From NCBI GenBank assembly GCA_951406725.2, contig OX597826.1, positions 15,748,001 to 15,812,000 of the forward strand: 64,000 nucleotides of DNA. The letters are read 5' to 3'. Shown here piece by piece: positions 3,037-58,934 of this stretch. The position numbers and the translations under genes are program-made. Source of the stretch: Octopus vulgaris (lineage: Eukaryota). The notes under the pieces were generated by a model that ran no database searches, was not told where the DNA came from, and saw only the letters and a program-made list of their open reading frames with translations. How positions within the stretch are numbered: the stretch's first letter is position 1; every line of letters begins with the position of its first letter.

Positions 3037-5467
3037 ATCAACAATAAAGGAACGGCCATAATAGGCCATTCACCCACTAGAAATAACAGCCAAAGCTTCA
3101 ACCGCAAATAAAAGTTAATTCAGTAAACGAGGAGAAAATTAAAAAAAACATTTACCCTGTAATTTCTTATACGATATACCGTTTCATCTGCTGATTAATG
3201 GTAAACTAACCTGATTAAATTAAATCAAGCCAATCTTCCACAGGCCCTCAGATTCTTCAGTAAGAAATAGCCCAAGACGGAACAGATATTTTCACGAGGC
3301 ATTTCCGACGTTGCCAAGTTAATATCTGACCTAAAATTTTCAAATCGTCGCACTCGCGCCAAATTTATAGGCAGCAAATAAATATAAGCCGTCGATTCCA
3401 TTACGGAATCAACCAGAAAATTCATAATTAATCAATATAGGGTGGCAAAAAAAATTTGTAGAATTCTTTTGCCACCAGCGGCCTAGTAGGAAAAAATTAA
3501 AATAGTCATAGACCATTTTTAAGTTCAACATCAACAATAAAGGAACGGCCATAATAGGCCATTCACCCACTAGAAATAACAGCCAAAGCTTCAACCGCAA
3601 ATAAAAGTTAATTCCGTAAACCAGGAGAAAATTTAAAAACATTTACCCTGTAATTTCTTATACGATATACCGTTTCATCTGCTGATTAATGGTAAACTAA
3701 CCTGATTAAATTAAATCAAGCCAATCTTCCACAGGCCCTCAGATTCTTCAGTAAGAAATAGCCCAAGACGGAACAGATATTTTCACGAGGCATTTCCGAC
3801 GTTGCCAAGTTAATATCTGACCTAAAATTTTCAAATCGTCGCACTCGCGCCAAATTTATCGGCAGCAAATAAATATAAGCCGTCGATTCCATTACGGAAT
3901 CAACCAGAAAATTCATAATTAATCAATATAGGGTGGCAAAAAAATTTTGTAGAATTCTTTTGCCACCAGCGGCCTAGTAGGAAAAAATTAAAATAGTCAT
4001 AGACCATTTTTAAGTTCAACATCAACAATAAAGGAACGGCCATAATAGGCCATTCACCCACTAGAAATAACAGCCAAAGCTTCAACGGCAAATAAAAGTT
4101 AATTCAGTAAACCAGGAGAAAATTTAAAAACATTTACCCTGTAATTTCTTATACGATATACCGTTTCATCTGCTGATTAATGGTAAACTAACCTGATTAA
4201 ATTAAATCAAGCCAATCTTCCACAGGCCCTCAGATTCTTCAGTAAGAAATAGCCCAAGACGGAACAGATATTTTCACGAGGCATTTCCGACGTTGCCAAG
4301 TTAATATCTGACCTAAAATTTTCAAATCGTCGCACTCGCGCCAAATTTATCGGCAGCAAATAAATATAAGCCGTCGATTCCATTACGGAATCAACCAGAA
4401 AATTCATAATTAATCAATATAGGGTGGCAAAAAAAATTTGTAGAATTCTTTTGCCACCAGCGGCCACCCTATATTGATTAATTATGAATTTTCTGGTTGA
4501 TTCCGTAATGGAATCGACGGCTTATATTTATTTGCTGCCGATAAATTTGGCGCGAGTGCGACGATTTGAAAATTTTAGGTCAGATATTAACTTGGCAACG
4601 TCGGAAATGCCTCGTGAAAATATCTGTTCCGTCTTGGGCTATTTCTTACTGAAGAATCTGAGGGCCTGTGGAAGATTGGCTTGATTTAATTTAATCAGGT
4701 TAGTTTACCATTAATCAGCAGATGAAACGGTATATCGTATAAGAAATTACAGGGTAAATGTTTTTTTAAATTTTCTCCTGGTTTACTGAATTAACTTTTA
4801 TTTGCGGTTGAAGCTTTGGCTGTTATTTCTAGTGGGTGAATGGCCTATTATGGCCGTTCCTTTATTGTTGATGTTGAACTTAAAAATGGTCTATGACTAT
4901 TTTAATTTTTTCCTACTAGCCGCTGGTGGCAAAAGAATTCTACAAAATTTTTTTTGCCACCCTATATTGATTAATTATGAATTTTCTGGTTGATTCCGTA
5001 ATGGAATCGACGGCTTATATTTATTTGCTGCCGATAAATTTGGCGCGAGTGCGACGATTTGAAAATTTTAGGTCAGATATTAACTTGGCAACGTCGGAAA
5101 TGCCTCGTGAAAATATCTGTTCCGTCTTGGGCTATTTCTTACTGAAGAATCTGAGGGCCTGTGGAAGATTGGCTTGATTTAATTTAATCAGGTTAGTTTA
5201 CCATTAATCAGCAGATGAAACGGTATATCGTATAAGAAATTTCAGGGTAAATGTTTTTTAAATTTTCTCCTGGTTTACTGAATTAACTTTTATTTGCGGT
5301 TGAAGCTTTGGCTGTTATTTCTAGTGGGTGAATGGCCTATTATGGCCGTTCCTTTATTGTTGATGTTGAACTTAAAAATGGTCTATGACTATTTTAATTT
5401 TTTCCTACTAGGCCGCTGGTGGCAAAATAATTCTACAAAATTTTTTTTGCCACGCTATATTGATTAA
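3037..5467. repeat. 491-bp tandem array with internal inversion (~2.9 units in one orientation, then ~2 in the other), flanked by (TA)n
   Basis: An identical 66-aa spurious ORF recurs at 3225, 3716 and 4207 (-) and at 4484 and 4977 (+). The strand switches at 4463-4465 (GCC microhomology). Confidence 0.97.
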
Positions 5468-5539
<72 letters not shown>

Positions 5540-7198: not shown

Positions 7199-7383
7199 AG
7201 GCGCAGGCGTCGCTGTTAAGTAACAGGCTTGATTCCCAACTACATGATTTTGGGTTCAGTCAGACTGCGTGAGAAATTGGGCAAGTGCCTTCATCTATAG
7301 CCGCGACGAAGCCATAGTGGTGGATTTGGTAGACGGAAACTGAATGAAGCCCGTCCTATATATATATATATATATATATATAT
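7199..7383 (+). mobile_element. tRNA-derived SINE, family A (5' half, ending in its internal (TA)n)
   Basis: GGCGCAGG head followed by TTGGGCAAGTG...GTGGATTTGGTAGACGGAAACTGAA...AGCCCGTC(TA)n, shared with the copies at 14576, 33065 and 60083. Confidence 0.8.
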
Positions 7384-7384
7384 C

Positions 7385-8243
7385 CATTCACGGAAGCAAA
7401 GGAATTTCGTAGAAAGGAGGTGAACCTGAAGAATTTGAGAAGTTTCGAAAACATGGTGGATAGGATGGTTGCGATGTGTACTCCGTGAAAGACAAGAAGA
7501 TTACATCGGAGGCAACAGAAATAAATGAGAGAACATTGAGGCCAATTTGGCGAGATAAGTTATATCTCGCCAGAGGAAGCCGTTTCGGATGTGTAAACGT
7601 TCATTTTAGAAGTACGGAGAAAGCAAGGGAACACTCGGTAACGCCCATGAAGACGGACAAAGTGGTCCACCTACCAACGTACCTAGGAAGAAGGACTACC
7701 AGAGTCAAGGTGGAGGAAATTCCCCCGGAAATAGACGTAGCTTGTGTGGCAGCAGCAGTGCTTCTCTGAAACGTAGTGACAGTCATTCACGAAGACACAG
7801 AACTAGATATAAGCATATATCTAGTTCTGTGTCTTCGTGAATGACTGTCACTACGTTTCAGAGAAGCACTGCTGCTGCCACACAAGCTACGTCTATTTCC
7901 GGGGGAATTTCCTCCACCTTGACTCTGGTAGTCCTTCTTCCTAGGTACGTTGGTAGGTGGACCACTTTGTCCGTCTTCATGGGCGTTACCGAGTGTTCCC
8001 TTGCTTTCTCCGTACTTCTAAAATGAACGTTTACACATCCGAAACGGCTTCCTCTGGCGAGATATAACTTATCTCGCCAAATTGGCCTCAATGTTCTCTC
8101 ATTTATTTCTGTTGCCTCCGATGTAATCTTCTTGTCTTTCACGGAGTACACATCGCAACCATCCCTATCCACCATGTTTTCGAAACTTCTCAAATTCTTC
8201 AGGTTCACCTCCTTTCTACGAAATTCCTTTGCTTCCGTGAATG
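7385..8243. repeat. Near-perfect ~427-bp-arm palindrome with a 4-nt loop
   Basis: 7385-7811 is the reverse complement of 7816-8243, with loop AGCA and one visible 1-bp indel (GGATAGG versus GGATAGGG). Mirrored ORFs at 7476-7769(+) and 7858-8364(-). Confidence 0.97.
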
Positions 8244-9250
8244 TCTTCCCTTCCAAATGCTTGTGCATTTTCTGCACCGCTCTCACGAGCTCCTCCTCCG
8301 ATGACAACAACTCGTATTCGCTGATATCTGAATATACAAAATTAGCCGAGAGAAACCTAGCCATCTCTCACGGAGAAAAAAACACAGCTAAACCGCTGCA
8401 AACCAGCAAAAAGAATAACAACTCAACAATTAAAACTCCAAGTAATCGAACAGGAAACACACACAGAGCAAAATTTTATGAAAATGATTTTTTATTACCC
8501 ACAAGGGGCCAAGGAAGTGTGGATATTACACGGACTTGTGGGCAAATAGAACGTATAAAAGAAAACAAAAAACGTATGATATAATGCATAAAAAATGAAA
8601 ATGATATATAGAAATGGGCTACCTGAGACCCTTACATCATTCAGTCCTTCGTTCTCTTCCATATTGCAGTCAGTTCTCCAAACTGAATAACCACTTTTGT
8701 ATTCGTATATTCCCTTCAATCTACTCTTAGGCACCGCAAAACATTTGTACCATGATTTTCCTTCTGAGTTCTCTCGTTTTCTTTCCTTCAACTTTGCCAT
8801 TTTACTTAACAAGTCTGCATCAACTTCCTCAGACATTATAACTAAATCACAATTGGCAGAGGAGGTTTGTGATTTCTTGTGTGTCAGCACTTCTTTTTTT
8901 CTATTTAATTTTTGTCGGAGTGAATGGGTGTGTGTGGTGTCTGCGGGGGGAGGGTTGGGTTGAGAGAGTATGGGTGGGATGGGTATGGGTTGGGGTTCCT
9001 GTTCATTTCGACTCCTTTTCTCTTCTTTCTCTGCGTCACCACCTTCCATCTTCCTTCCTCCTTCTTCTCTGCTGCTTCTTCCATCACCTGTTCCTTTTGA
9101 TCTTCCTCCCGACTTTCCAAGCAATCAAGCAGGAAACACGCACAGAGCCAAATGTTATACACCACCGCATGGCTAAATTGCCAAAATGTTTTCATCGCTT
9201 TGGGAGCACGACCTGTTGCAGCACGGAATTTTGTCAGTGAACAGGTCGCG
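7816..9250 (-). mobile_element. Head-to-tail pieces of a non-LTR element encoding an ORF1-like protein (no ORF2 seen)
   Basis: ORF 7858-8364 (MARFLSANF...GRRTTRVKVEEIPPEID) resembles an RRM-type LINE ORF1. A low-complexity, charged C-terminal piece (8495-9124) runs into an AATAAA-containing tail. A 5' UTR segment is repeated at ~8430-8480 and ~9115-9160. Confidence 0.55.
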
Positions 9251-9297
9251 CTCTCAAAGCGACGAAAATATTTTGGTAAATTAAATTTATGTGTTGA

Positions 9298-10400
9298 AGT
9301 TAGTTAGTTAATTTGGCTCAAAAGCAAATAGCAAGGCCATGTAGGGGGACATGGAGTTAAGTACAGGGTGGTGTTCATGTAAAGAGTTCAGGCCACTTGA
9401 GGTCCAGGGAGGCTTTGAACAAAGCGGTCGTCGGCATCTTCACCATCTCGTCTGGCAGCTTGTTCCACGGATCCGCAACCCGGACGGAGAAAGCTCCTCT
9501 CCTTCGATTGAGATGAAATCGTCGCAGGTATAGCTTTTCGGAATGACCCCGCAGCCGATGCTCTGGAGCAGGAGTGAAGAACAGCTCTTTCGAGAGGTTA
9601 CACTTTCCGCTTATGATGTTGTGGGCGAGAATGAGATCACCACGGCGGCGGCGTTTTTCAAGAGAATAAAGGTCGAGCGTCCTCAGCCTTTCTTCGTAGG
9701 ACAAATTATTGAGACCATGAACCATGCGGGTAGCCAGCTTCTGGACTCTTTCGAGATGCTGTATGTCTTTGAGGAAATAAGGAGAGGAGGCTTGAATCCC
9801 ATACTCCAATATGGGTCTCACCAGCGTGACATAAAGTGGTAGGAATATGGCTGCTGTGAGCATTCCGAATGACCGTCGAATCAAGAACAGAATTCCGCGT
9901 GCTTTGTTGGCAGCATGGACGCACTGGGCTGAAGGCGAAAAGGAGGAATCCACCAAGATACCCAGGTCCTTTACCTGATCGGTCCTCTCCAGCAGCAGAC
10001 GACCCGGCTCGAAATCAAGTTGAGTTGCAGGAGTAGAGCCGACAGGCAGATGACAGCATTTTGACACGTTCAGACACATGTCCCAATCGTTACACCACTT
10101 CCAAATTTGGTGGAGGCATCGACGAAGATCCTCTATATTACCGCGAGGAGCGACCAGTTTGATATCGTCGGCAAATAGAAGGGTGTGTTGCGTGAGGTTG
10201 TCGGGCAAGTCATTTATGAAGACTAAGAACAACAAGGGCCCAAGCACTGAACCTTGAGGCACCCCACTGCTCGCACTGGAGACGTCGGACCGCGAGCCAT
10301 TAACTTGGACTTGGAAGGAGCGATCTGAGAGGAAGGCACCAACCCATCGTACAATATCCGGATGGAAACTATATGCTTGAAGCTTGACAAGTAATAGGTG
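9298..10400 (-). mobile_element. 5'-truncated CR1-group LINE, RT C-terminal half open
   Basis: ORF 9375-10262 has PQGSVLGPLLFL.FINDLP, LFADDIKL, VKDLGILVD, LERVQKLATRMV and RGHSEKL...FSVRVADPWNKLP. A short 3' UTR ends in a (TAAC)n tail. Confidence 0.92.
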
Positions 10401-10763
10401 GTGAATTTGACGGTTTTTGTGTGTATCTTTAAATGACTTATAAACATCTTCACCGCTGTAATTGTTTTTGCTTCAGCTCATCATCTCAGATCAGTCCACT
10501 TGCTATGCAAGTACATCTTCGCAATACATATATGATATTTTTCCTATCATGTCCATAATAGATTTGGGACTATTCGGTGGTACAGAGATATTTTTTGACT
10601 TCTATTTTTAGCGATATATGTACTCATGTAGTACCCTTGTGGATATATATATATATATATATTTACGTATCTAAAATATTGTATGTATCTATTTCATGAA
10701 GTTGCCTGTACGGCTGAGAATTCGCTTACCATTCGTGATGGTATTTTAATAATACCATGTAAT

Positions 10764-25001: not shown

Positions 25002-28000
25002 AATGTGGGAGTGGTGCCATGGCAGTAATTTGTTGAATGGTCAACTGCGCTGATCCACAGCTGATGGTAGCAGTCGCTGTTCATTTCTTTTGAATGTTTT
25101 GTTTATGAAATTTGCGTAGGTGTTATTTTAAACATCATTATTGATAAAGTTAGGAAGGAGAACGAAGGAGACGAAGAAGAAGAAGAAAAAGAAGAGGAAA
25201 GAGAAGGGAGAATAGGAAAGAATGTAGTGTCAAAGTAGTAAGGTGTTAAATGTTTAAATGACTTAAAATTGCCACGTTATGGATTATAGCAGTGATTTGG
25301 ACTGTTTTTTAATGAATACTTAGGAATCTCTTAAGTGTATAATTTTTAATATTTGTGTGTGTATGTGGTATTCTTAGGCTGGGGGTGGGAAATATGTCGT
25401 TTGTGAGAAGGGGCCTGTATTTTGTAATAAAGCGTGTCTCTTTACTAATTCGTTGGCTCCAGGTTGTATCGTTCCTGAATTGGTAGAGGGGAAAATTCCA
25501 AAGCTTGGATTTTTGTTATTGGCGCAAATGTCTATGTGTTGGCTGAATGCTATTTTTCTGTTTTGGGGAATTTTTATCTGGGATCTGTGCAGGGCCATTC
25601 TTTTACGTAGAATGTTTTTTGTTCGGCCTATGTATTGCTCTTGACACCCAAAGTAGGTTAATGTGTGTATCAGGTTCTCAGAAGCACATATGAAGTTGTT
25701 TTTCACTGTGAAACGTTGTCTCTGTTTGAAGGAGAAACCTGATCCCTAAATTAGATAATCGCATATCCCACAATTGGGTCTTCCACATTTTTTACTGACG
25801 GCTTCTGTGTTGTTGAGCGTATTGGGGCTTGTGTTAGGAGACTTTTCATAGATTTAGGCAGTCTCATGCTTTTTATGATGGTGTGTGTTTGGAGGATTAC
25901 GTTCTTTCAGTGGTCCTTTTTTAGCAGGGGTATGCTTTGGAGGATGGTGTCGAAGGCTTCATTGTTGAGAGGGTTGTGTGTGGAGATGTATGGTAAGGCT
26001 TTTGGTCGAACATTTTTCTTTAATTTGGGATGTCTTTGTTCTTGGATGTTGAATGGCACGTTGAAAGCATATGTCAATTAGTGAAGGTGGGTAGTTCCTG
26101 GTGATGAATGTATCTTTTAGATCACGTAGTCAGGTGTCTCTAGTGTTTGCATTAGAAACTATTGTACATATCCTTTTTGCTAGGTTGAAGGTGATATTCC
26201 TTCTGGTGTGTCTGGGGTGGCATGAATTGAATGGTAGATATTGCTTGGAATCCGTAGGCTTATAGTATATATCTGCTTCGATTACGTTGTTAGATTTCTT
26301 AATGAGGATGTCGAGGAAGGGGAGTTCTTGCCGGCTATATTCCATCGTGAATTGAATGTTTACGTCAAGTCCATTTAAAAGTGCTTGGAATTCTTCAAGT
26401 TTCTCTATATTTTCATGCCAAAGAATGAAACAGCCATCAAGATATCTCTTCCAGTTACTTTCTATGTAGAGAGAGAAAGGGCTGCCGTATCTTTGTAGAA
26501 CCTTACGATAAAGACTAATTTCTAGATATCCCATGATTAGGTAAGCAACGGAGGGGGCCATTCGCGTACCCATCGCAGTCCCCGATTTTTGTCGGTAGAA
26601 GTTGTCTTTGAAGGCGAAGTAGTTATTTTCCAAGATGAATTTTAGCTCTTCTACCACGAATTCCTTTTTGATGCGATGTGAGAGTTCGTTGGCGTAATTC
26701 TCTAGCCAGAATTAAATTGAACCTATTCCTAGGTTGTGGGGGATATTGGAATAGAGGTTGACTACATCGAAGGATACTAGTAGGATGTTTTTGGTTATTG
26801 TTTTAGGAAGGTGATTGAGAATATCGTCCCTTATATAGCTTTTGACATGGTAAAGGAATGATTTTAAGAAAGTATCTAAAAAGTTAGAGGCGGTGGGTTT
26901 CGCTTGCAGGACCTGCTATTATAGGTCTCAATTTGAGGTCATTAGGAGTAGGGACTTTAATTATTTTGTCTGTGGCTATCTTGCATGCGTTACGTATTTT
27001 CTCACTTTTTTATATCTTGGGAATACCGTAGAATTGGCTGGTTTTACTTTTGAAATTGGTCATGTAGTCATATTCTTTGTCGGCGAGCCCTTCTTTGTAT
27101 AGCTTTAACAAGGATTTTAGTTCTCTCATTATTTTTTGCTGACTGTAGTTTTGGGCCTTTTCATAATATGTTGTGTTTTCCTACATTGATAGTACTAAAG
27201 TTATATAGAATAATGTGTCCATTAAGACAACTGCACTCCCTTTATCGGCCTCTTTGATTGTTATTGTTTTGTCATTTTTTTTATTTGTTCAGCTCAGCCC
27301 ATTCTTTTTTGTTGAAGTTTGGTTAGTGTTTTTTTTGTGCATATGTTGATATGGGTAATTCGAGATGTGTTCACAGAAATAATCAATTGTTTTGTTCTTA
27401 ACTTTTGAGGGGTGTAGTTACTCCTATTTCGGACCAACGATTCGTCCTCGTTGTATTTGTCGTATAGTTCCTCAGCAAGTCGTAATTTTCTACAGAATTC
27501 TGCGATTTCTTCTTTCATTTCATTGTAGTCGGGGTGTTGTGGGGTGGGTGTATACTTGAGTCCTTTGGAGAGTATATTGATTTGGTTTGCTGTTAGTTCT
27601 TTGTGAGTTAGATTGATAATTTTTATCACTTTTGGTTCTTCCTGCCTCTTTGGTGCTATCTTGCGTCTCTGTGCTTGCGTATTGAGTCTTAAAATGATTG
27701 GGGTGGTTGGGACGGTAGCTATTATGTAGTTGTTGTTGTGGGGTGCCCTGTTGTGATTTATGGTGTGGGTTCTTGGAACAGTATTGAAGAGTGTGTCCCG
27801 ATATCCCATATTCAGGTATGACGTTTTAGGGGGCCATCGTTAGTAATTATTGCGTGGGGTGCGGGTTTGTTGCGCATGGTTGTTTAGTAGGTTGTTGGAA
27901 CGAAAATCTCGTTGGTAACTCCTTATTGGGGGGAGTAGGTTGCAGCGTCTATCCTCTCGGTAGTGATTTATCCTTTCTCTGTTTGAAGTTAGGGTACTCC

Positions 28001-29049
28001 CGATATTGTATCACTGGTGGCTTACAAATTTAGGGTTAGGTCCTGTATTCTTTTCTTTTTGGTCGGGGTGATGGTTCCGATTTTTAGACAGGTGGGTATC
28101 AGTGTTTGAGTGTTGTTTTGATTTTCTTATTTTCAGGAAAGGATTGTTGGAAGCGTGCTCTGTTTGAAAGACGGTTTCAGAGTTTGAGAACCAAGTGGCG
28201 CTTTTCTCCCAGCGTTGGAGAGATTTCAGTTCTTCTTTTTCACAGTCCTCTTTCCATAGTTTGGAGATCTTCTCTTGATTTGGCCCTTAGGTCATTTTGT
28301 GAATTTCTTGGTTGATCTCTTCATCGGTGGATTTTACTTTATCTTCATTCGTTTGGGCCCTCAAATTTAGAAGTTCTATTTCCATTTTCCTTTTTTCCAT
28401 TGCCATTCTTTCCCTAAGGCATCATTGTGCTTCAGGTTCCCCTGTAATAGCTTTAATCTGGAATTTACGTGGGAGAATTAACGGTGTCCGGTTGAGCCAT
28501 TTTTGTTTTTTATAAAATTATTTTAGCATTTTCTATCTTGACTTTTTTCCATATATATCGACTAGATCATCTTCCAAAAAGCGAACTTTCTATCTCTGAG
28601 TGATTTGTTCCATATGTGCTGTTTCATTTGGTATGTTGTGAGAGTATTGATCCCATATGCTGTCTCGTTTGGAGGTCCTTGATTCGCGTTGTTAGAGAGA
28701 AATGTTCTAATTGTTTTGCATAATTTTCCAAGGTTTTCGGCGATTTCGGAGGTTGTATTTTTCGTATTAGTTTCCTCATTGTTCTCCCAAATGGGTTAAT
28801 GTGTCGAGTCGAATTCATTTGAAATGTTGACAGATTTGTGTTGATTTTCTTGAGTTCTTTCAGTACTTCTTCATTTATGGAAGTGACTGTGTCTGTTTTT
28901 GTCGGCATTTTGTGTATCTCGTGTGGGTTAATGATATGCAGACCGATGAAATGGAACACTCTAGTCGATATATATGGAAAAAAGTCAAGATAGAAAATGC
29001 TAAAATAATTTTATAAAAAACATTTCATATATATATAGAAAGAGATTTA

Positions 29050-50289: not shown

Positions 50290-51069
50290 TAGTTTTATTT
50301 TTATTTTTATAGCGTGCTTTCACTTCACTACCGAGCGCAGCTCTGTGTGCCTTGGGTATGTGCTGTGATTTGTTGTGATGCTCTGATGGTTATTGTATGG
50401 AAAGTGTTCTGCGTAGGATGTGTGCAGTGCCTAGCAGTGCAATTTTCTGTATGTTATATGTGTTTGTAAGTCCTGGTGTTTTTGTTATGTATTTGTCTGA
50501 ATATTTTTTTATCATGCCTAATGCACCTACTATGATAGGAATTGTTTCTGTTTTCAGATTCCACATTCTAGTTACCTCTATTTCCAGGTCTTTGTATTTT
50601 GAGAGTTTCTCCATTTCTTTTAGAGACACGTTGTCATCTGCCGGTATTGATACATCAATTAAAAAGCATTTTTTTCCTTCATGATCTCTGACAACTATAT
50701 CTGGTCTGTTGGCTTTAATTTCTCTATCTGTGTGTATCGGCATATCCCAGAGTATGGTTGCTTTCTCGTTTTCTGTGACCTTTTCTGGTATGTGCCTATA
50801 CCATCTTTTTTCTGTTGTTATTCCAAAATGTTGGCATAGCTTCCAATGTATGTAGGTTCCAACTCTGCCATGTCTGTGAATATATTCCTTCTTAGCCAGG
50901 ACTGGGCAGCTAGAGATAATATGATTTATTGTTTCTTGTCCATCTCCACATATTCTGCAGTTACTTGTAATATTTCTTTTCATTACATGTTTTTGGTAAT
51001 TTCTGGTGGGGAGGCTTTGGTCTTGTGCTGCAATTAAAAATCCCTCTGTTTCTGCTTTGAGTCCTGAGC
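50287..51069 (-). mobile_element. 5'-truncated R4/Dong-type non-LTR element (RLE endonuclease domain) inserted in (TAA)n
   Basis: ORF 50390-50983 has a CCHC knuckle (CRICGDGQETINHIISSC), RHGRV, TILWD, NRPDIV...LIDVSIP and EKLSKY. Pure (TTA)n tracts lie on both sides. Confidence 0.93.
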
Positions 51070-51135
<66 letters not shown>

Positions 51136-51599
51136 CAGTATTCTTAGTTATTTTTATTTTATAAGCATTCTTATTCTTATTCTTATTTTAGTATTATCTA
51201 AGAATTCTATTTGTTTACGTTATTATTTATAACCTCTTTATGTATTTGTAAATTAAGTTAAATGGAATGCGTTGTCACTATTCAAAGCATCCAAATCGTT
51301 CGCAGTGTAGTTTGATGCGCGTTTAATATGACCGCTGACACTTTTCTCTCTTTATTATTAGTCTTACTACTTTCTCTTATCTTTGTGTTATACAGCAAAT
51401 CAAATTTATATCTTCTATCACTCTATTTCCTCATCTCCTCGCTACTTGATTAGTTGACAGATCTTGAACGCATACACTTGTTTTTTTATATCTTGCTATT
51501 CATCAATAAAATTTCAGTAGCTGATAAGCGAAGAAATATTTTACTAAGTTCATGTTATGTCTAAAGAACTGAAAACCTATCTAATATGATATAATATTA

Positions 51600-52500: not shown

Positions 52501-52739
52501 TTTATCCAGTTTTCTCATATATAGTTTTTTTTAGCTTAACTTAAAATATTATTCCCAAATATCCGATACACACACACACATTTATATATATATATATATA
52601 GATCAATAAATGGTGGGGTTGTGTTGACCGCACGTGGAGAAATGATAAGTAAGGAAACATTTTTTTAAAAATGCAGAATGCTCAAATGAAAGAAAATTTT
52701 AATAAAATGAGAAATTGATAAAATATATAAATATATATT

Positions 52740-52780
52740 TATTCAACCGGTTTTCGTCATTGTATGACTTGTCAAGAATA
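52740..52780 (-). ncRNA. Variant minimal type I hammerhead motif (PLE2 pLTR, copy 1)
   Basis: UAUUC-UUGACAA-GUCAU ACA AUGAC-GAAA-ACCGGUU-GAAUA. Confidence 0.65.
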
Positions 52781-53411
52781 TTTATGTTTTAAGAAGTTTT
52801 TTAAAAATTAGAAAGGGGAAAAAAAGAAAATTGCATTGTTTTTTGTAAAAGAATAATGATAAAAATGTACAAAAATTAAAAAATAAGTTCTCCGATACAT
52901 TGTGAGTTCGTTGTGTATCTTGAGTTTTATGGTTGTTTACGAAAAAATTACCTTGAGGTGTTAAGATCCAAAGGGATTAAGAGCATGTGTTGTGTTGTGT
53001 TGTTAAATTCAGCATGTTTGCAGGACAGGAAGTAGTAGTAATTGTGGTCCTGGTTCTTCAGTTCCTGTGTTGTGAGTAAGGGGAGACAACTCTTTTGAGT
53101 TCTTCAATAAAACCCAAATTATAAACTATCATTTTAGCTTCATTTGCATTATCTTTTTTATATAATTGCTTGTTAACTTAACTTTCAGATTTTAACACTT
53201 TATTTATATTATTTTCTAATAATATAAATCTGCATAGACAATTGCATTTCAAATTGTCATATCATTTATAATAAAAATGATAGTAATAACAACAATAGTA
53301 AAAATGATATTTAAAGAATATAAGTTTTAGCTTGAAGTGATGAATGCATGGTATCTTTATATATTTGTGTTAGTCCATCCATGAAGAGTGAGGTAGAGAA
53401 AGGAAGTTTGA

Positions 53412-55173
53412 TCAACGAGGAGTTTGCATATTAAGTTGTGTTTGGAATTTTTCAATAAAGAGATTCTCCTTGTTAATTCTCTCCTGTGTGGTGATCCCGT
53501 CTTTACATTGGTAGAAGGGGAATATATAGAATTTGGGGTTTAAGTCTTTAGCACATGAGTCTAAGTGGTCACTCAGTGGAATTTGTCGGTATTCCGGGAG
53601 ATTTATTTGTTCTTTATGCACCGTTACTCGTTTACGTAACGGGAGACTCGTTTGTCCAACATAATTATGTTGGCAACCAGCGCATGTGAGAACGTAGATA
53701 AGGTTCTCGGAGGAACAGGAGAAGTTAGTCTTGATTTTAAACTTCGTACCTTGTTTGAAGGTAAATTCAGAGCCTTCAAGTAGAAAGGGGCAGGTACCAC
53801 AGTTTGAGCGTGCACATTTTTTTACTCTTGGGGGTGTATGTGGTGTGTGAAGTTTGGCATTTGTCAAGAGTTTTTTTAAAGATTTGTGTTGCCTTTTGCA
53901 TTTGAGGATTTTGTGTGTATTTATAATGTTTTTCATTTTTTGGTCTGTTGACAGTAGACTGAGGTTTTGTATGATTGTGGTGTATGCTTCGATATTTTTG
54001 GGGTTGTGGGTGGAAATGTATGGAAGTATTTTGAGGTTGTGTGTGGTGTTAGGTTGGGTGGTCTTCTGTGTAGTGTTGTCTAGTTCTTTGGCGCGTTTTA
54101 TTCCATACTCTATAAGGGTGGAGGGATATTGACGTTGTAATAGTGTTTTTTTGAGGTCTTGAAGGCGTATTTCTCGTGTTTTTGGATCCGAGACAATGGT
54201 GCATACTATTTTAGCTAAATTGAAAGGGATATTTGTCTTGGTGTGTTTTGGGTGGCATGAACTAAAGAGGAGGTATTGTTGTGAGTCTGTAGGTTTGTGG
54301 TAGATGTCTGTTATGATTTGGTTCTTAGGTGTTTTTATAATTAGGAGATCAAGGAATGGGAGATGATGTTTGCTTAATTCCATAGTGAATTGGATGTTGG
54401 GATGTATGTTGTTTAGTATGGTTCTGAATTCCAGGAGTTTTTCATAAGGTTCTTTCCATATGATGAAACAATCATCTAAATACCTTTTCCAGTTTTCCAT
54501 TAGGTAGGTGTGGAAAATATGTCCAAATTTCTGGCTTGATATTTCATAGAGTGACAGTTCGAAGTAACCCATTATGAGGTTCGCAAGGACTGGTGCAGCC
54601 TTGGTACCCATCGCAATGCCACATTTTTGACGGTAGTGTGTGTCGTCGAAGAGAAAAAAATTGTTTGTCAGAATGAACTTAAGAGATTCTGTAATAAAAG
54701 ACTTGTTAATGCGGTCAGGGAATGTCTCTGGGTGTTTTTCTAGCCAGAAGTCAATTGCCTCTATACCATACTCATGTGGAATGTTGGTGTAGAGGTTGAT
54801 GACATCAAAGGATACCAGGAGTGCCTCCTCGTTAACTGTTTTCGGGAGGTGTTTGAGCATGTCCAGATCATCCCTAATGAAACTTTTGATGTGGGTAATG
54901 AAAGGTTTCAAAAGGATGTCTAGGAAGTTACTCAGGCGGTGTGTTTCACAGGAGGTACCAGCCACGATGGGCCTTAGTTTTAGGTCCTCCGGTGCTTTGA
55001 TGTTGATGTGGATGTCAGTGGAGAGTTTGCAGGCTTCGGTGATGTATTTGTTTTTATGGATTTTAGGAAGGCCATAAAAAAGGCTGGGCTTGCTTAAATG
55101 GTGATATAATCCCTTTCTTTTTCTGTGCGTCCCTGACCGTGTTGGCGTATGAGTGTGGTGAGGTTTCTGATTG

Positions 55174-55204
<31 letters not shown>

Positions 55205-57195
55205 TGTAGTTGTTAATAACCTCATAGAATATGTTATTGTTAAGCATGGAGAACACTAGGTGTTTATAAAATTCCGTGTCCATAAGGACCACAGCACTCC
55301 CTTTGTCCGCTTCTTTGATGGTGAGGTTTTTATCCAGTTGTATGTCACGTAGGTTTTCCCATTCTTCCTTACTGAAATTGGATTTTACCTTGGTTTTGCT
55401 TGGGGTAAAGGGGAGACTCTGGATGTGTTTACAGAAATCGTCCAGTGTTTTATTTCTCCCTTTTGGTGGTAGGAAGTTGCTTTTATTTTTGATCAATGAA
55501 TCGTCCCCATTGTTGATATCTGTCAAAGCTTCTGTTAGGCGAAGTTTTCGTCAGAATTCAGAAACGTCATCCTTGACCTCCGGGGGGTTGGGTGTTCTTG
55601 TGGTGGGTGTGAATTTCAAACCTCTTGCTAGGATGTTGATTTGGGTTGGTGTCAGTGTTTTGCTGGAGAGGTTTATAATTTTTGTTTTCTTATTTTGGGT
55701 CTGTGTTAGCGGTGGTGTTTGTATTTTTCCCCTCTGTCTAACAAATGGTTGTTGAGGTAAGGGGTGTATTCTTTGTTAAAGTTCTGGTTGTATGTGTAGG
55801 AGTGTTTTTGGGTGGGGAGGTTGGAGGGGGGTAGGTAGTTGTCGTATTTGTGTTGGTATGGGATGCGATGGTGTAAGGATTTGTGAGAAATGCGATGGGT
55901 TTGTGGGTGTGTGTCTGGTAGATTGTATGGGGGGATGTAGGGGGGTATGTAGTTGTGGTGATTGGGTTCGTGTGGGATGTGAGGGTTTGGAGATCTGTAG
56001 GAGATGTGGTAGGAATGTGGTTGTTGGATGGGTGGACTATAGGGGGTTCGTTGGGTGGGTCTTATATGTATCGGTGTGGGTAGGATGCCTTGTTTGTTAT
56101 TAGTGTGAGGGAGGGGAGCCTTGAGGGGGGATAATTTCTAGTGTATGGGAGGTTCTTGAAGGTTCTAATCGGTGGGGGAGGGGTGTTAGAGTGATTGGAA
56201 AACCAGGTTTTGTGGTGGGTCTTGTTTGAGATGTTTCGGGGGGAAAAGGTTTTTTATATGGTTGGGGGAGGTTGTGTCCTGTTAGGAGGGGGTTTGGAGA
56301 GTATGTGTATTTGAGGTGCGGTTTGGAATGGTGTTTATGGGGTACAGTGGAAGTCTGTGTTGTGGGTACTTTTATGAATGGGTTTTTGGATTTATGGTTT
56401 AATATGAATTGTGTTTCATAGTTGAGGAAGAAATCTTTGTTGTTTTCCCAGCGTTTAAGGGAGGTTCGTTCTTCCTTTTCACATTCATCTTTCCATAGTT
56501 TAATAACAAGTTCGAGGGGCTGTTCGTTGGTGTGTGAGGTTAGTTCTAGAAGTATCTCATCGTCTATTTTTGTGTATTTTTGTTCGTGGTTTTGTGCTCT
56601 GAGTTTTAGAAGTTCTACTTCGGTTTTCATTTTTTCCAATGTTAGTTTTTCTCTTAGGGAGCGTTGTTTTGCAGGTTCGTCTGGGATGTGTTTGATTTGG
56701 AATTTTCGGGGTAGTATGATAGGGGAGGAGTTTAACCATTTGTCGTAAATTTCAGCTTTGTTTTGGTTTTTGAGCATGTTCCAGAAGAGAAGTTTTCTGT
56801 TGTAGTTTCTTAGTCCAAGTAGTGATGAGCTGGTTTTTAATGCGTTGTGCTGGGGTTGAAGTGTGTTCTTTCTGTGTGTTGAGTGGTGTCTGAGGTCTCT
56901 TTGGCGTTGAATTGGTAAGTAGAGTTTTCAGTGTAGTGTTGATTTCATTTAGGTTTACATCTATCTTATCCGAAAGTAGAGTTTTCAGTGTAGTGTTGAT
57001 TTCGTTTAGGTTTACATCAATTTTATCCGAAAGTTGTTGATGATGGTTGTTTTCTGAGTTGTCCCGGGATTGATGGAGAAGTTCGTCAATTTTTTTGGAG
57101 AATGTAAGTAGATGTGTATTGAGTACTTTGAGTTCTTTTAGAATGGTCTTATTGGTGACTGTCTCTGAAAGAGTGCTCTTGTTTTTCGGAGGCAT
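53412..57195 (-). pseudogene. PLE2 polyprotein (long N-terminal region, RT, Zn motif, GIY-YIG), interrupted by frameshifts and stops
   Basis: Segments 56752-57195, 56100-56777 and 53412-55526. Motifs FYGLPKIHK, LRPIV, VSFDVINLYTNIP, QKCGIAMGTKAAP, WKRYLDDCF, CARSNCGTC and NLIYVLTCAGCQHNYVGQT. Confidence 0.93.
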
Positions 57196-57363
57196 TCTGA
57201 ATCACACGGGTGGTAGAGGGTACAGATCAATAAATGGTGGGGTTGTGTTGACCGCACGTGGAGAAATGATAAGTAAGGAAAAAATTTTTTAAAAATGCAG
57301 AATGCTCAAATGAAAGAAAATTTTAATAAAATGAGAAATTGATAAAATATATAAATATATATT

Positions 57364-57404
57364 TATTCAACCGGTTTTCGTCATTGTATGACTTGTCAAG
57401 AATA
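57364..57404 (-). ncRNA. Variant minimal type I hammerhead motif (PLE2 pLTR, copy 2)
   Basis: Identical to copy 1. Confidence 0.65.
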
Positions 57405-58739
57405 TTTATGTTTTAAGAAGTTTTTTTAAAAATTAGAAAGGGGAAAAAAGAAAATTGCATTGTTTTTTGTAAAAGAATAATGATAAAAATGTACAAAAAT
57501 TAAAAAATAAGTTCTCCGATACATTGTGAGTTCGATACATGAAGAGTGAGGTAGAGAAAGGAAGTTTGATCAACGAGGAGTTTGCATATTAAGTTGTGTT
57601 TGGAATTTTTCAATAAAGAGATTCTCCTTGTTAATTCTCTCCTGTGTGGTGATCCCGTCTTTACATTGGTAGAAGGGGAATATATAGAATTTGGGGTTTA
57701 AGTCTTTAGCACATGAGTCTAAGTGGTCACTCAGTGGAATTTGTCGGTATTCCGGGAGATTTATTTGTTCTTTATGCACCGTTACTCAAGACTAACTTCT
57801 CCTGTTCCTCCGAGAACCTTATCTACGTTCTCACATGCGCTGGTTGCCAACATAATTATGTTGGACAAACGAGTCTCCCGTTACGTAAACGAGTAACGGT
57901 GCATAAAGAACAAATAAATCTCCCGGAATACCGACAAATTCCACTGAGTGACCACTTAGACTCATGCGCTAAAGACTTAAACCCCAAATTCTATATATTC
58001 CCCTTCTACCAATGTAAAGACGGGATCACCACACAGGAGAGAATTAACAAGGAGAATCTCTTTATTGAAAAATTCCAAACACAACTTAATATGCAAACTC
58101 CTCGTTGATCAAACTTCCTTTCTCTACCTCACTCTTCATGGATGGACTAACACAAATATATAAAGATACCATGCATTCATCACTTCAAGCTAAAACTTAT
58201 ATTCTTTAAATATCATTTTTACTATTGTTGTTATTACTATCATTTTTATTATAAATGATATGACAATTTGAAATGCAATTGTCTATGCAGATTTATATTA
58301 TTAGAAAATAATATAAATAAAGTGTTAAAATCTGAAAGTTAAGTTAACAAGCAATTATATAAAAAAGATAATGCAAATGAAGCTAAAATGATAGTTTATA
58401 ATTTGGGTTTTATTGAAGAACTCAAAAGAGTTGTCTCCCCTTACTCACAACACAGGAACTGAAGAACCAGGACCACAATTACTACTACTTCCTGTCCTGC
58501 AAACATGCTGAATTTAACAACACAACACAACACATGCTCTTAATCCCTTTGGATCTTAACACCTCAAGGTAATTTTTTCGTAAACAACCATAAAACTCAA
58601 GATACACAACGAACTCACAATGTATCGGAGAACTTATTTTTTAATTTTTGTACATTTTTATCATTATTCTTTTACAAAAAACAATGCAATTTTCTTTTTT
58701 TCCCCTTTCTAATTTTTAAAAAACTTCTTAAAACATAAA

Positions 58740-58780
58740 TATTCTTGACAAGTCATACAATGACGAAAACCGGTTGAATA
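58740..58780 (+). ncRNA. Variant minimal type I hammerhead motif (PLE2 pLTR, inverted copy 3)
   Basis: TATTCTTGACAAGTCATACAATGACGAAAACCGGTTGAATA. Confidence 0.65.
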
Positions 58781-58934
58781 AATATATATTTATATATTTT
58801 ATCAATTTCTCATTTTATTAAAATTTTCTTTCATTTGAGCATTCTGCATTTTTAAAAAATGTTTCCTTACTTATCATTTCTCCACGTGCGGTCAACACAA
58901 CCCCACCATTTATTGATCTATATATATATATATG

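What the first reader, a model, noticed from the sequence alone, without database searches (positions are those of the whole stretch)
4463..4962. The 491-bp unit has several hairpins whose G-U pairs fall on one strand
Seen on the right-arm plus strand: GTTGATTCCG-TAA-TGGAATCGAC (4496-4518, two G-U), GCCGA-TAAAT-TTGGC (one G-U), CAGATATT..GGCA..TGCC..AATATCTG (nested stems, ~4581-4627), ACGG-TATA-TCGT (one G-U), GAATGGCC-TATTAT-GGCCGTTC (4838-4859, one G-U) and a 10-bp GGTGGCAAAA stem. On the opposite strand the wobbles become A-C mismatches. The favoured strand has its 3' ends pointing outward to (TA)n in both arms, as the PLE2 sense strand does. Inference: selection on a folded single-stranded RNA, possibly an unrecognised ribozyme or RT-recruitment structure.
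Basis: partly seen in the sequence, partly recalled or inferred. Interest (0 to 1): 0.7.

Follow-up and report, generated by a model that had tools for sequence, protein, structure and literature searches.

The report
Hammerhead retrozyme with pseudoknot-braced ribozyme
This 491-base protein-less repeat, with over two thousand copies in the genome, carries a hammerhead ribozyme motif whose stems and a predicted bracing contact are kept by paired changes between subfamilies, so its RNA likely cuts itself and is likely copied back into TA repeats by a Penelope-type jumping gene; cutting is untested.

Summary
The hairpins are there, but their G-U strand bias is no more than base composition gives (p=0.32; folding asymmetry z -1.45). 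Each unit holds a type I hammerhead (4641-4747, predicted cut after 4739) that Rfam misses; the ACGG-TATA-TCGT hairpin is its stem III. Over ~110 loci only N7 of the core varies. Stems I-III show compensatory or pair-keeping changes, and loop 3 stays palindromic (TATA/TGCA). Stem II carries a 58-nt insert, and a predicted loop1-loop2 pseudoknot covaries (G-C 2036, A-U 203, mixed 13). Hairpin 4496-4518 is not conserved; a long-range helix fits better. Copies sit in (TA)n as head-to-head arms ending at two fixed points (74 of 116 loci one of each, 0 B/B), the Penelope 'tail' footprint. One end shares a 15-nt motif with the young Penelope family found in this window. Verdict: a non-LTR retrozyme, likely moved by Penelope machinery. 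The scan reported this family and its two-ended insertion before, on other DNA of this genome; the pseudoknot did not appear in the notes I retrieved. Cleavage and circular RNA are untested.

The parts
4463..5470 (+). right arm: two full 493-nt units, then the fixed end B into (TA)n
3037..4464 (-). left arm: about 2.9 units, fixed end A at 3037 against (TA)n; joined head-to-head to the right arm with a 2-nt overlap
4641..4747 (+). type I hammerhead: stem I 4641-48/4740-47, core CUGAAGA 4649-55, stem II 4656-60/4719-23, GAAA 4724-27, stem III 4727-38, GUA triplet, predicted cut after 4739
5134..5240 (+). second hammerhead copy (predicted cut after 5232)
4144..4250 (-). hammerhead copy in the left arm (further copies 3653-3759 and 3162-3268)
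4637..4666 (+). predicted loop1-loop2 pseudoknot, GGCU 4637-40 with GGCC 4663-66
   Evidence: same double change in contigs of other runs
4668..4711 (+). long hairpin inserted in stem II (inside the 58-nt insert)
4727..4738 (+). stem III with palindromic loop (TATA or TGCA); self-complementary, predicted to allow a double hammerhead
4496..4795 (+). predicted long-range helix 4496-4508 with 4783-4795 closing the ribozyme domain; fits the variation better than the local hairpin 4496-4518
4829..4919 (+). predicted three-way junction with hairpin 4838-4859; end A (unit position 410 = 4872) lies in its unpaired linker
4925..4978 (+). hairpin 4925-4961 followed by motif CCACCnTnTATTGAT (4957-4971) and end B (unit position about 20-23)
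5468..5538 (.). (TA)n target tract, right side; a (TA)n tract also flanks 3037
52597..58918 (-). Penelope-like element PLE2 (RT plus C-terminal GIY-YIG ORF 53412-55550); candidate, unproven, autonomous partner sharing the end-B motif at 52616, 57240 and 58903

Best explanation
The 491-493-bp unit is a non-coding non-LTR retrozyme that carries a type I hammerhead motif with a 58-nt insert in stem II and a predicted loop1-loop2 pseudoknot; its multimeric RNA likely self-cleaves into monomers that would be circularised, and a Penelope-like RT/GIY-YIG enzyme likely copies one such RNA from both strands of a cut (TA)n target, starting at two fixed sites. Shown: the motif, its covariation, the copy number, the lack of an ORF, the two-ended insertion geometry, and the end motif shared with PLE2. 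Inferred: cleavage (possibly as a double hammerhead through the palindromic stem III), a circular template, copying by a Penelope protein, PLE2's family as the donor, and joining of the two cDNAs by short microhomology.
For: Hammerhead topology is complete in all 5 window units. There are 2103 genomic matches to the long-stem-II pattern and 0 in the reversed control. In 109-115 locus haplotypes only N7 varies (A59/C26/G18/U7); the other core letters differ in at most 1 locus each. 4660/4719 is G-C in 69 and A-U in 41 of 110 loci, with nothing else; loop 3 is TATA 68, TGCA 46, other 1. On 22 rows from four subfamilies, 97.5% of cells pair, 4 of 7 stem I pairs show double changes, and covariation is 0.191 against 0.125 (0 of 500 shuffles; slid controls 31-46% paired). 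Pseudoknot pair 4637/4666: G-C 2036, A-U 203, A.C 7, G.U 6. The stem III self-duplex is -13.6/-17.5 kcal/mol against -0.2 as a hairpin. Longest ATG ORF is 66 aa. Of 116 loci, 74 have one A end and one B end, 1 is apparently A/A and 0 are B/B. The two arms of a locus differ by 0.46% against 2.2% between loci (45 loci). 142 of 157 arms run through at least one cut site and 69 through two or more. The first 100 listed hits of the end-B motif before (TA)n are of two types only; of 15 checked, 7 are this unit, 5 PLE2 family and 3 short unassigned pieces. The PLE2 family is young (95-100% identity) and also has two ends, 48 nt apart. Two adjacent internal RT starts, extension of both DNA strands, and a one-sided tail are described for PLEs (PMC11167929; PMC8557442).
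Against: There is no cleavage, transcript or circle data. Pair 10.1-11.1 is A-U, not the usual G-C, and is A.C in some copies. In single-sequence ensembles stem I has probability only 0.01-0.44, and the active fold costs 1.7-3 kcal/mol. Li et al. found cleavage in only 1 of 9 Xenopus retrozyme dimers. The 203 A-U pseudoknot copies are one subfamily, so probably one event. Only 3 of 166 arm 5' ends fall exactly at the cut site (p about 0.005 for that position; the overall spread is not different from uniform, p=0.07). Some arrays have alternating variants among units (L034, L086, L069; L063), which a single monomer circle does not give without later change. Beyond the end motif the unit shows no similarity to PLE2, and the window's PLE2 copy has the same end on both arms. 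The loci were the first-listed or best hits, not a random sample.
Confidence: 0.8

Rival explanations
1. Same retrozyme and Penelope-type insertion, but the template is an uncleaved linear multimer (or repeated template jumps). The hammerhead cuts rarely or only with protein help, and no circle is needed.
For: Most arms read through the cut site. For the anole element, unprocessed RNA was the main substrate and hammerhead mutants did not change insertion (PMC11167929). Some arrays have alternating unit variants. One heavily A-to-G-changed contig runs uncut across the site.
Against: Arrays reach 15 or more near-identical units (L240). Many locus-private variants are carried by every unit of both arms (8). 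Strict core conservation across subfamilies 83-99% alike implies that cleavage matters to the lineage.
Confidence: 0.3
2. The unit is just the detached pLTR of an autonomous Penelope element not yet found, so the arrays are 5'-truncated insertions rather than an independent retrozyme.
For: The geometry is that of PLEs. Xenopus retrozymes are homologous to pLTRs (bioRxiv 10.64898/2026.07.22.740005).
Against: In 116 loci a PLE-like ORF occurs in 3 flanks only and never continuous with the unit. The units are tandem without an intervening ORF, and there are four long-diverged tandem subfamilies. Only about 140 loci of an unknown larger total were read.
Confidence: 0.1
3. A DNA-level satellite or MITE-like foldback element whose hairpins are incidental, with the hammerhead an inactive relic.
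For: Both strands fold better than shuffles and the G-U bias is not significant; the arrays are tandem and inverted.
Against: Only N7 varies in the core, the helices show compensatory changes, 3' ends are fixed while 5' ends vary, and the inverted arms differ in length and end point.
Confidence: 0.03

Closest known systems
Metazoan non-LTR retrozymes (Cervera and de la Pena 2020, PMC7229834: passages and section 14 read, supplement not readable; Li, Clavereau and Pollet 2026, bioRxiv 10.64898/2026.07.22.740005: parts 1-3 of 5 read)
   Same: Tandem non-coding low-GC units with one type I hammerhead each, a short stem III with a palindromic loop, many dispersed arrays, and coexistence with PLEs.
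   Different: The unit is about 490 nt (170-450 nt in the 2020 paper, within the 51-972 range of 2026). Stem II carries a 58-nt insert and a predicted Watson-Crick pseudoknot to loop 1. The arrays are head-to-head with two fixed ends in (TA)n; the word 'inverted' does not occur in the main text of PMC7229834. The link to the candidate PLE is a 15-nt end motif, not whole-pLTR homology.
EN+ Penelope-like elements and their 'tail' (Frangieh et al. 2024, PMC11167929: parts 1-2 of 4 read; Craig et al. 2021, PMC8557442: passages; Cervera and de la Pena 2014, PMC4209133: parts 1-2 of 4)
   Same: AT-rich or (TA)n targets, an inverted 5'-truncated partner copy, two fixed start points with the extension on one end only, and a hammerhead in the repeat.
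   Different: No ORF; the tail is about 103-106 nt instead of 30-40 (48 in the PLE2 family here); the hammerhead is full rather than minimal.
Pseudoknot-stabilised hammerheads (Perreault et al. 2011, PMC3088659: passages read)
   Same: A base-paired contact between the stem I and stem II regions replaces the non-canonical loop-loop contact; predicted there for about 40% of representatives.
   Different: Here the contact is between two internal loops of a type I motif in a high-copy animal retroelement, and stem II continues into a long hairpin.

Membership tests
Type I hammerhead ribozyme | Core CUGANGA, GAAA and NUH with stem I open | tested here: met
   only N7 varies; triplet GUA
Type I hammerhead ribozyme | Three helices supported by covariation | tested here: met
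   double changes in stems I and II, pair-keeping changes in stem III; 346 of 349 cells paired
Type I hammerhead ribozyme | Usual G10.1-C11.1 pair (conserved, not obligatory per PMC3088659) | tested here: not met
   A-U in all haplotypes; A.C in a few rows
Type I hammerhead ribozyme | Tertiary contact between the stem I and stem II regions | tested here: inconclusive
   4-bp pseudoknot predicted; one pair covaries, probably one evolutionary event
Type I hammerhead ribozyme | Match to an Rfam hammerhead model | tested here: not met
   0 hits at gathering; none among 5 weak hits to E 10; the long insert is the likely reason (inference)
Type I hammerhead ribozyme | Site-specific self-cleavage | not testable with these tools
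   needs an in vitro assay
Non-LTR retrozyme | Tandem units of a few hundred bases, each with a type I hammerhead | tested here: met
Non-LTR retrozyme | No coding capacity; low GC | tested here: met
   longest ATG ORF 66 aa; GC 35%; PBS and PPT not searched
Non-LTR retrozyme | Dispersed, young mobile copies | tested here: met
   210 scored matches, mostly 98-100% identical, on many contigs
Non-LTR retrozyme | Expressed as linear and circular monomer RNA | tested here: inconclusive
   no holder on record as RNA; contigs cannot show ends or circles
Autonomous Penelope-like element | RT plus GIY-YIG ORF between pLTRs | tested here: not met
   absent from the unit and never continuous with it in 116 loci
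Element mobilised by Penelope machinery | Inverted 5'-truncated partner, one-sided tail, microsatellite target | tested here: met
Element mobilised by Penelope machinery | Copying by a named PLE protein | not testable with these tools
   shared end motif only

The most novel reading that the evidence does not exclude
A dimeric Penelope enzyme of the PLE2 family recognises a short shared start motif on a retrozyme RNA circle. It primes both strands of one (TA)n cut at two sites ~105 nt apart and rolls round the circle from both, like a SINE borrowing a LINE by its end motif alone. The circle's pseudoknot-braced hammerhead tolerates a long ADAR-edited hairpin in stem II, and some of those edits are written into the genome.
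Probability: 0.35. Interest if true: 0.75.

Novelty: new variant of a known kind. Interest (0 to 1): 0.55.

Why it matters
How animal retrozymes get back into DNA is open: the 2026 preprint proposes PLE machinery but says the mechanism remains to be elucidated. This family gives a named RNA, two mapped start points, a target, and a young candidate enzyme in the same genome, which fits the in vitro assay already published for the anole element. It also supplies natural compensatory series for a hammerhead with a long stem II insert and a predicted pseudoknot, a form that Rfam misses, so similar ribozymes may be undercounted. As a kind of element it is known, and the scan has met this family before.

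Tried and rejected
G-U strand asymmetry as evidence: not significant. Variant-based versions gave mixed results. The alignment-derived fold gave 13 WC/G-U toggles against 1 A.C, but this is circular. Folds from single sequences gave 2-7 G-U against 2-7 A.C depending on row and strand, and a G-U-free consensus gave 1 against 2. Rfam found nothing useful. Expression: no RNA holder listed. An A-to-G excess among locus-wide variants is suggestive only (13 A>G against 8 T>C of 53, p=0.076; single-piece control 7 against 11). Pile-up of 5' ends at the cut site: 3 of 166 exact, overall spread not significant. An apparent equal distance from cut site to end in PLE2 and the retrozyme was my miscount; PLE2 gives 97 and 145 nt against 133 and ~237. 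The search for the unit as a pLTR next to an ORF was negative. The 5' flanks of 25 one-armed or irregular loci, read by eye, showed no evident fusion to another RNA at the cut site. Whole-ORF Pfam and PDB searches of PLE2 were blank; the split ORF gave RVT_1 (E 2.8e-8) and GIY-YIG (E 1.7e-4, just under the cut-off). Literature searches found no listed paper on an octopus retrozyme, on retrozyme editing by ADAR, or on a retrozyme pseudoknot. The supplement of PMC7229834 and those of the bioRxiv preprint could not be seen and may list such repeats.

Full report
Setting. The finding is the first unit of the right arm of a foldback array: about 2.9 units on the minus strand (3037-4464) joined head-to-head to 2 units on the plus strand (4463-5470), between (TA)n tracts.

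Observation. All listed hairpins are present. The plus strand folds better than shuffles (z -4.47), and so does the minus strand (z -2.56). The claimed strand bias is explained by composition. The energy gap between strands is within the shuffle range (z -1.45, 8 of 100), and the G-U share is 18.3% against 19.6%. A strand-neutral count gives 6 G-U to 1 A-C against a 70% null (p=0.32). Variant-based tests of the bias were mixed. The hairpin 4496-4518 is a feature of a minority of copies: 4499 is A in 87 of 104 loci, which leaves an A.C mismatch, and no pair covaries. A helix 4496-4508/4783-4795 accommodates four one-sided changes as WC/G-U toggles (274 of 285 cells paired against 197 of 219). 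It is mismatched at one pair in the window's own subfamily, where the local hairpin is favoured.

What it is. Rfam does not detect it. The genome holds 808 exact copies of a 25-nt TATA-loop motif, 806 of a TGCA-loop motif, and 2103 matches to the long-stem-II pattern, with 0 in each reversed control. Across 109-115 locus haplotypes N7 takes all four letters, while every other core position differs in at most one locus; 72 of 450 unit columns vary. Stem II pair 4660/4719 is G-C (69) or A-U (41) only. Loop 3 switches TATA to TGCA, keeping the 12-nt self-complementarity needed for a double hammerhead (duplex -13.6 and -17.5 kcal/mol, hairpin -0.2). Two further subfamilies (about 92% and 83% alike) add double changes at four stem I pairs. 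On 22 rows the structure scores 97.5% paired, covariation 0.191 against 0.125, 0 of 500 shuffles (related rows inflate this test, and the pseudoknot is misaligned by one column in 3 rows). The whole-unit fold on 35 rows has 5 pairs with double changes.

Pseudoknot. GGCU (4637-40) before stem I can pair with GGCC (4663-66) in the internal loop above stem II. Pattern counts for pair 4637/4666 are G-C 2036, A-U 203, A.C 7 and G.U 6. The same double change appears in contigs of other runs. Both 4-mers persist in the 83% subfamily although stem I changes length and sequence; 2 of its 4 loci, which were picked from the A.C search, carry the mismatch. The A-U copies are one subfamily, probably one event, so this is a supported prediction, not proof. 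Such base-paired contacts are known in hammerheads (PMC3088659, passages). Against high activity: pair 10.1-11.1 is A-U, and stem I has low probability in single-sequence ensembles.

How it moves. Of 116 loci (first-listed pattern hits on two contigs plus best BLAST hits), 74 are clean two-armed insertions with one arm ending at unit position ~410 (A) and the other at ~20 of the next unit (B). Four more were flagged as irregular A+B, 1 is apparently A/A, 0 are B/B, 25 show one arm, and 12 have an irregular end. Nearly all A and B ends abut (TA)n. The 5' ends are spread over the unit, and many junctions overlap by 1-5 nt. The arms of one locus are nearly identical (0.46% against 2.2%, 23 of 45 identical), so both come from one template or source. 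142 of 157 arms cross the cut site, up to 8 times. The template was therefore a circle or an uncut multimer; alternating variants in a few arrays keep the second option open. This geometry is the PLE footprint: inverted truncated partner and one-sided tail (PMC8557442, passages); both strands extended and two internal RT starts (PMC11167929, parts 1-2 of 4). No ORF belongs to the unit.

Candidate partner. PLE2 in this window encodes RT and GIY-YIG. Its family is young, inserts in (TA)n, and has two ends 48 nt apart (both seen in L171, L174 and L181). Its distal end shares CCACCnTnTATTGAT with end B. Among the first 100 listed genomic hits of that motif before (TA)n, only these two spellings occur (12 of 15 checked loci assigned). 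There is no other similarity to the unit, so the partnership is a lead.

RNA traces. No holder is on record as RNA. In runs guessed to be RNA, one contig end reads 11 of 13 A as G with no other change across the cut site (compared by eye), and others show T-to-C runs. A4702G and A4707G reach 8-34% there against 0.3-1.7% in a large run of unrecorded kind. A4702G is also locus-wide in two genomic loci of different subfamilies. These are single low-depth contigs, and earlier notes say hyper-edited copies exist in this genome's DNA, so they hint at an edited RNA stage and do not prove present expression.

Comparison and verdict. It meets the sequence-testable features of a non-LTR retrozyme (PMC7229834: passages and section 14; bioRxiv 10.64898/2026.07.22.740005: parts 1-3 of 5; PMC4209133: parts 1-2 of 4). 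It differs in its hammerhead architecture and in the two-ended inverted insertion. My searches listed no paper on this family; unseen supplements may. The scan's earlier notes describe this family, the two fixed ends and a Penelope partner on other DNA of this genome; the pseudoknot was not among the 8 notes shown. Confidence: hammerhead retrozyme about 0.93; Penelope-type two-ended copying about 0.85; circular template about 0.6; PLE2 family as donor about 0.5; pseudoknot about 0.7. New variant of a known kind; interest 0.55.

Noticed in passing
window 52775 and 57399 (- strand, core start): The PLE2 pLTR holds a minimal hammerhead candidate with a U3-A8 core, a 5-bp stem II and a palindromic stem III region; this core variant is described in PMC4209133.
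   Followed up: partly
window 52597-58918: PLE2: a young Penelope-like element with an inverted partial pLTR. This copy has the same end on both arms, whereas other family copies have two different ends 48 nt apart.
   Followed up: partly
window 26130-28262 (-): A second, broken Penelope-like element; its RT piece is 59% identical to PLE2.
   Followed up: no
window 7463-8164: A perfect 349-nt inverted repeat with a 4-nt spacer next to (TA)n; the relaxed scan found no hammerhead in 7380-9300.
   Followed up: no
runs X1 and X3 laid on window 4463-4955: Contig ends with dense A-to-G or T-to-C changes, and recurrent A4702G/A4707G in the stem II hairpin.
   Followed up: partly
L240 (G000:C1:195858500-195868400): An array of at least 15-17 near-identical units of the A-U pseudoknot subfamily.
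   Followed up: partly
L086/L133, L034, L069: Variants recurring every few units within one arm (for example period 3), which may mark multimeric templates or later duplication.
   Followed up: no
L154, L155, L161: Very short (~25 nt) pieces with the PLE2-type end motif between TA tracts; L154 and L155 are a 3.6-kb tandem duplication.
   Followed up: no
window 9375-10472 (-) and 50390-51187 (-): Fragments of other retroelements: RVT_1 and zf-RVT hits.
   Followed up: no
runs of coded organisms B-F: The unit occurs in contigs of five other coded organisms, with tandem joints, so the family is not confined to this species label.
   Followed up: partly
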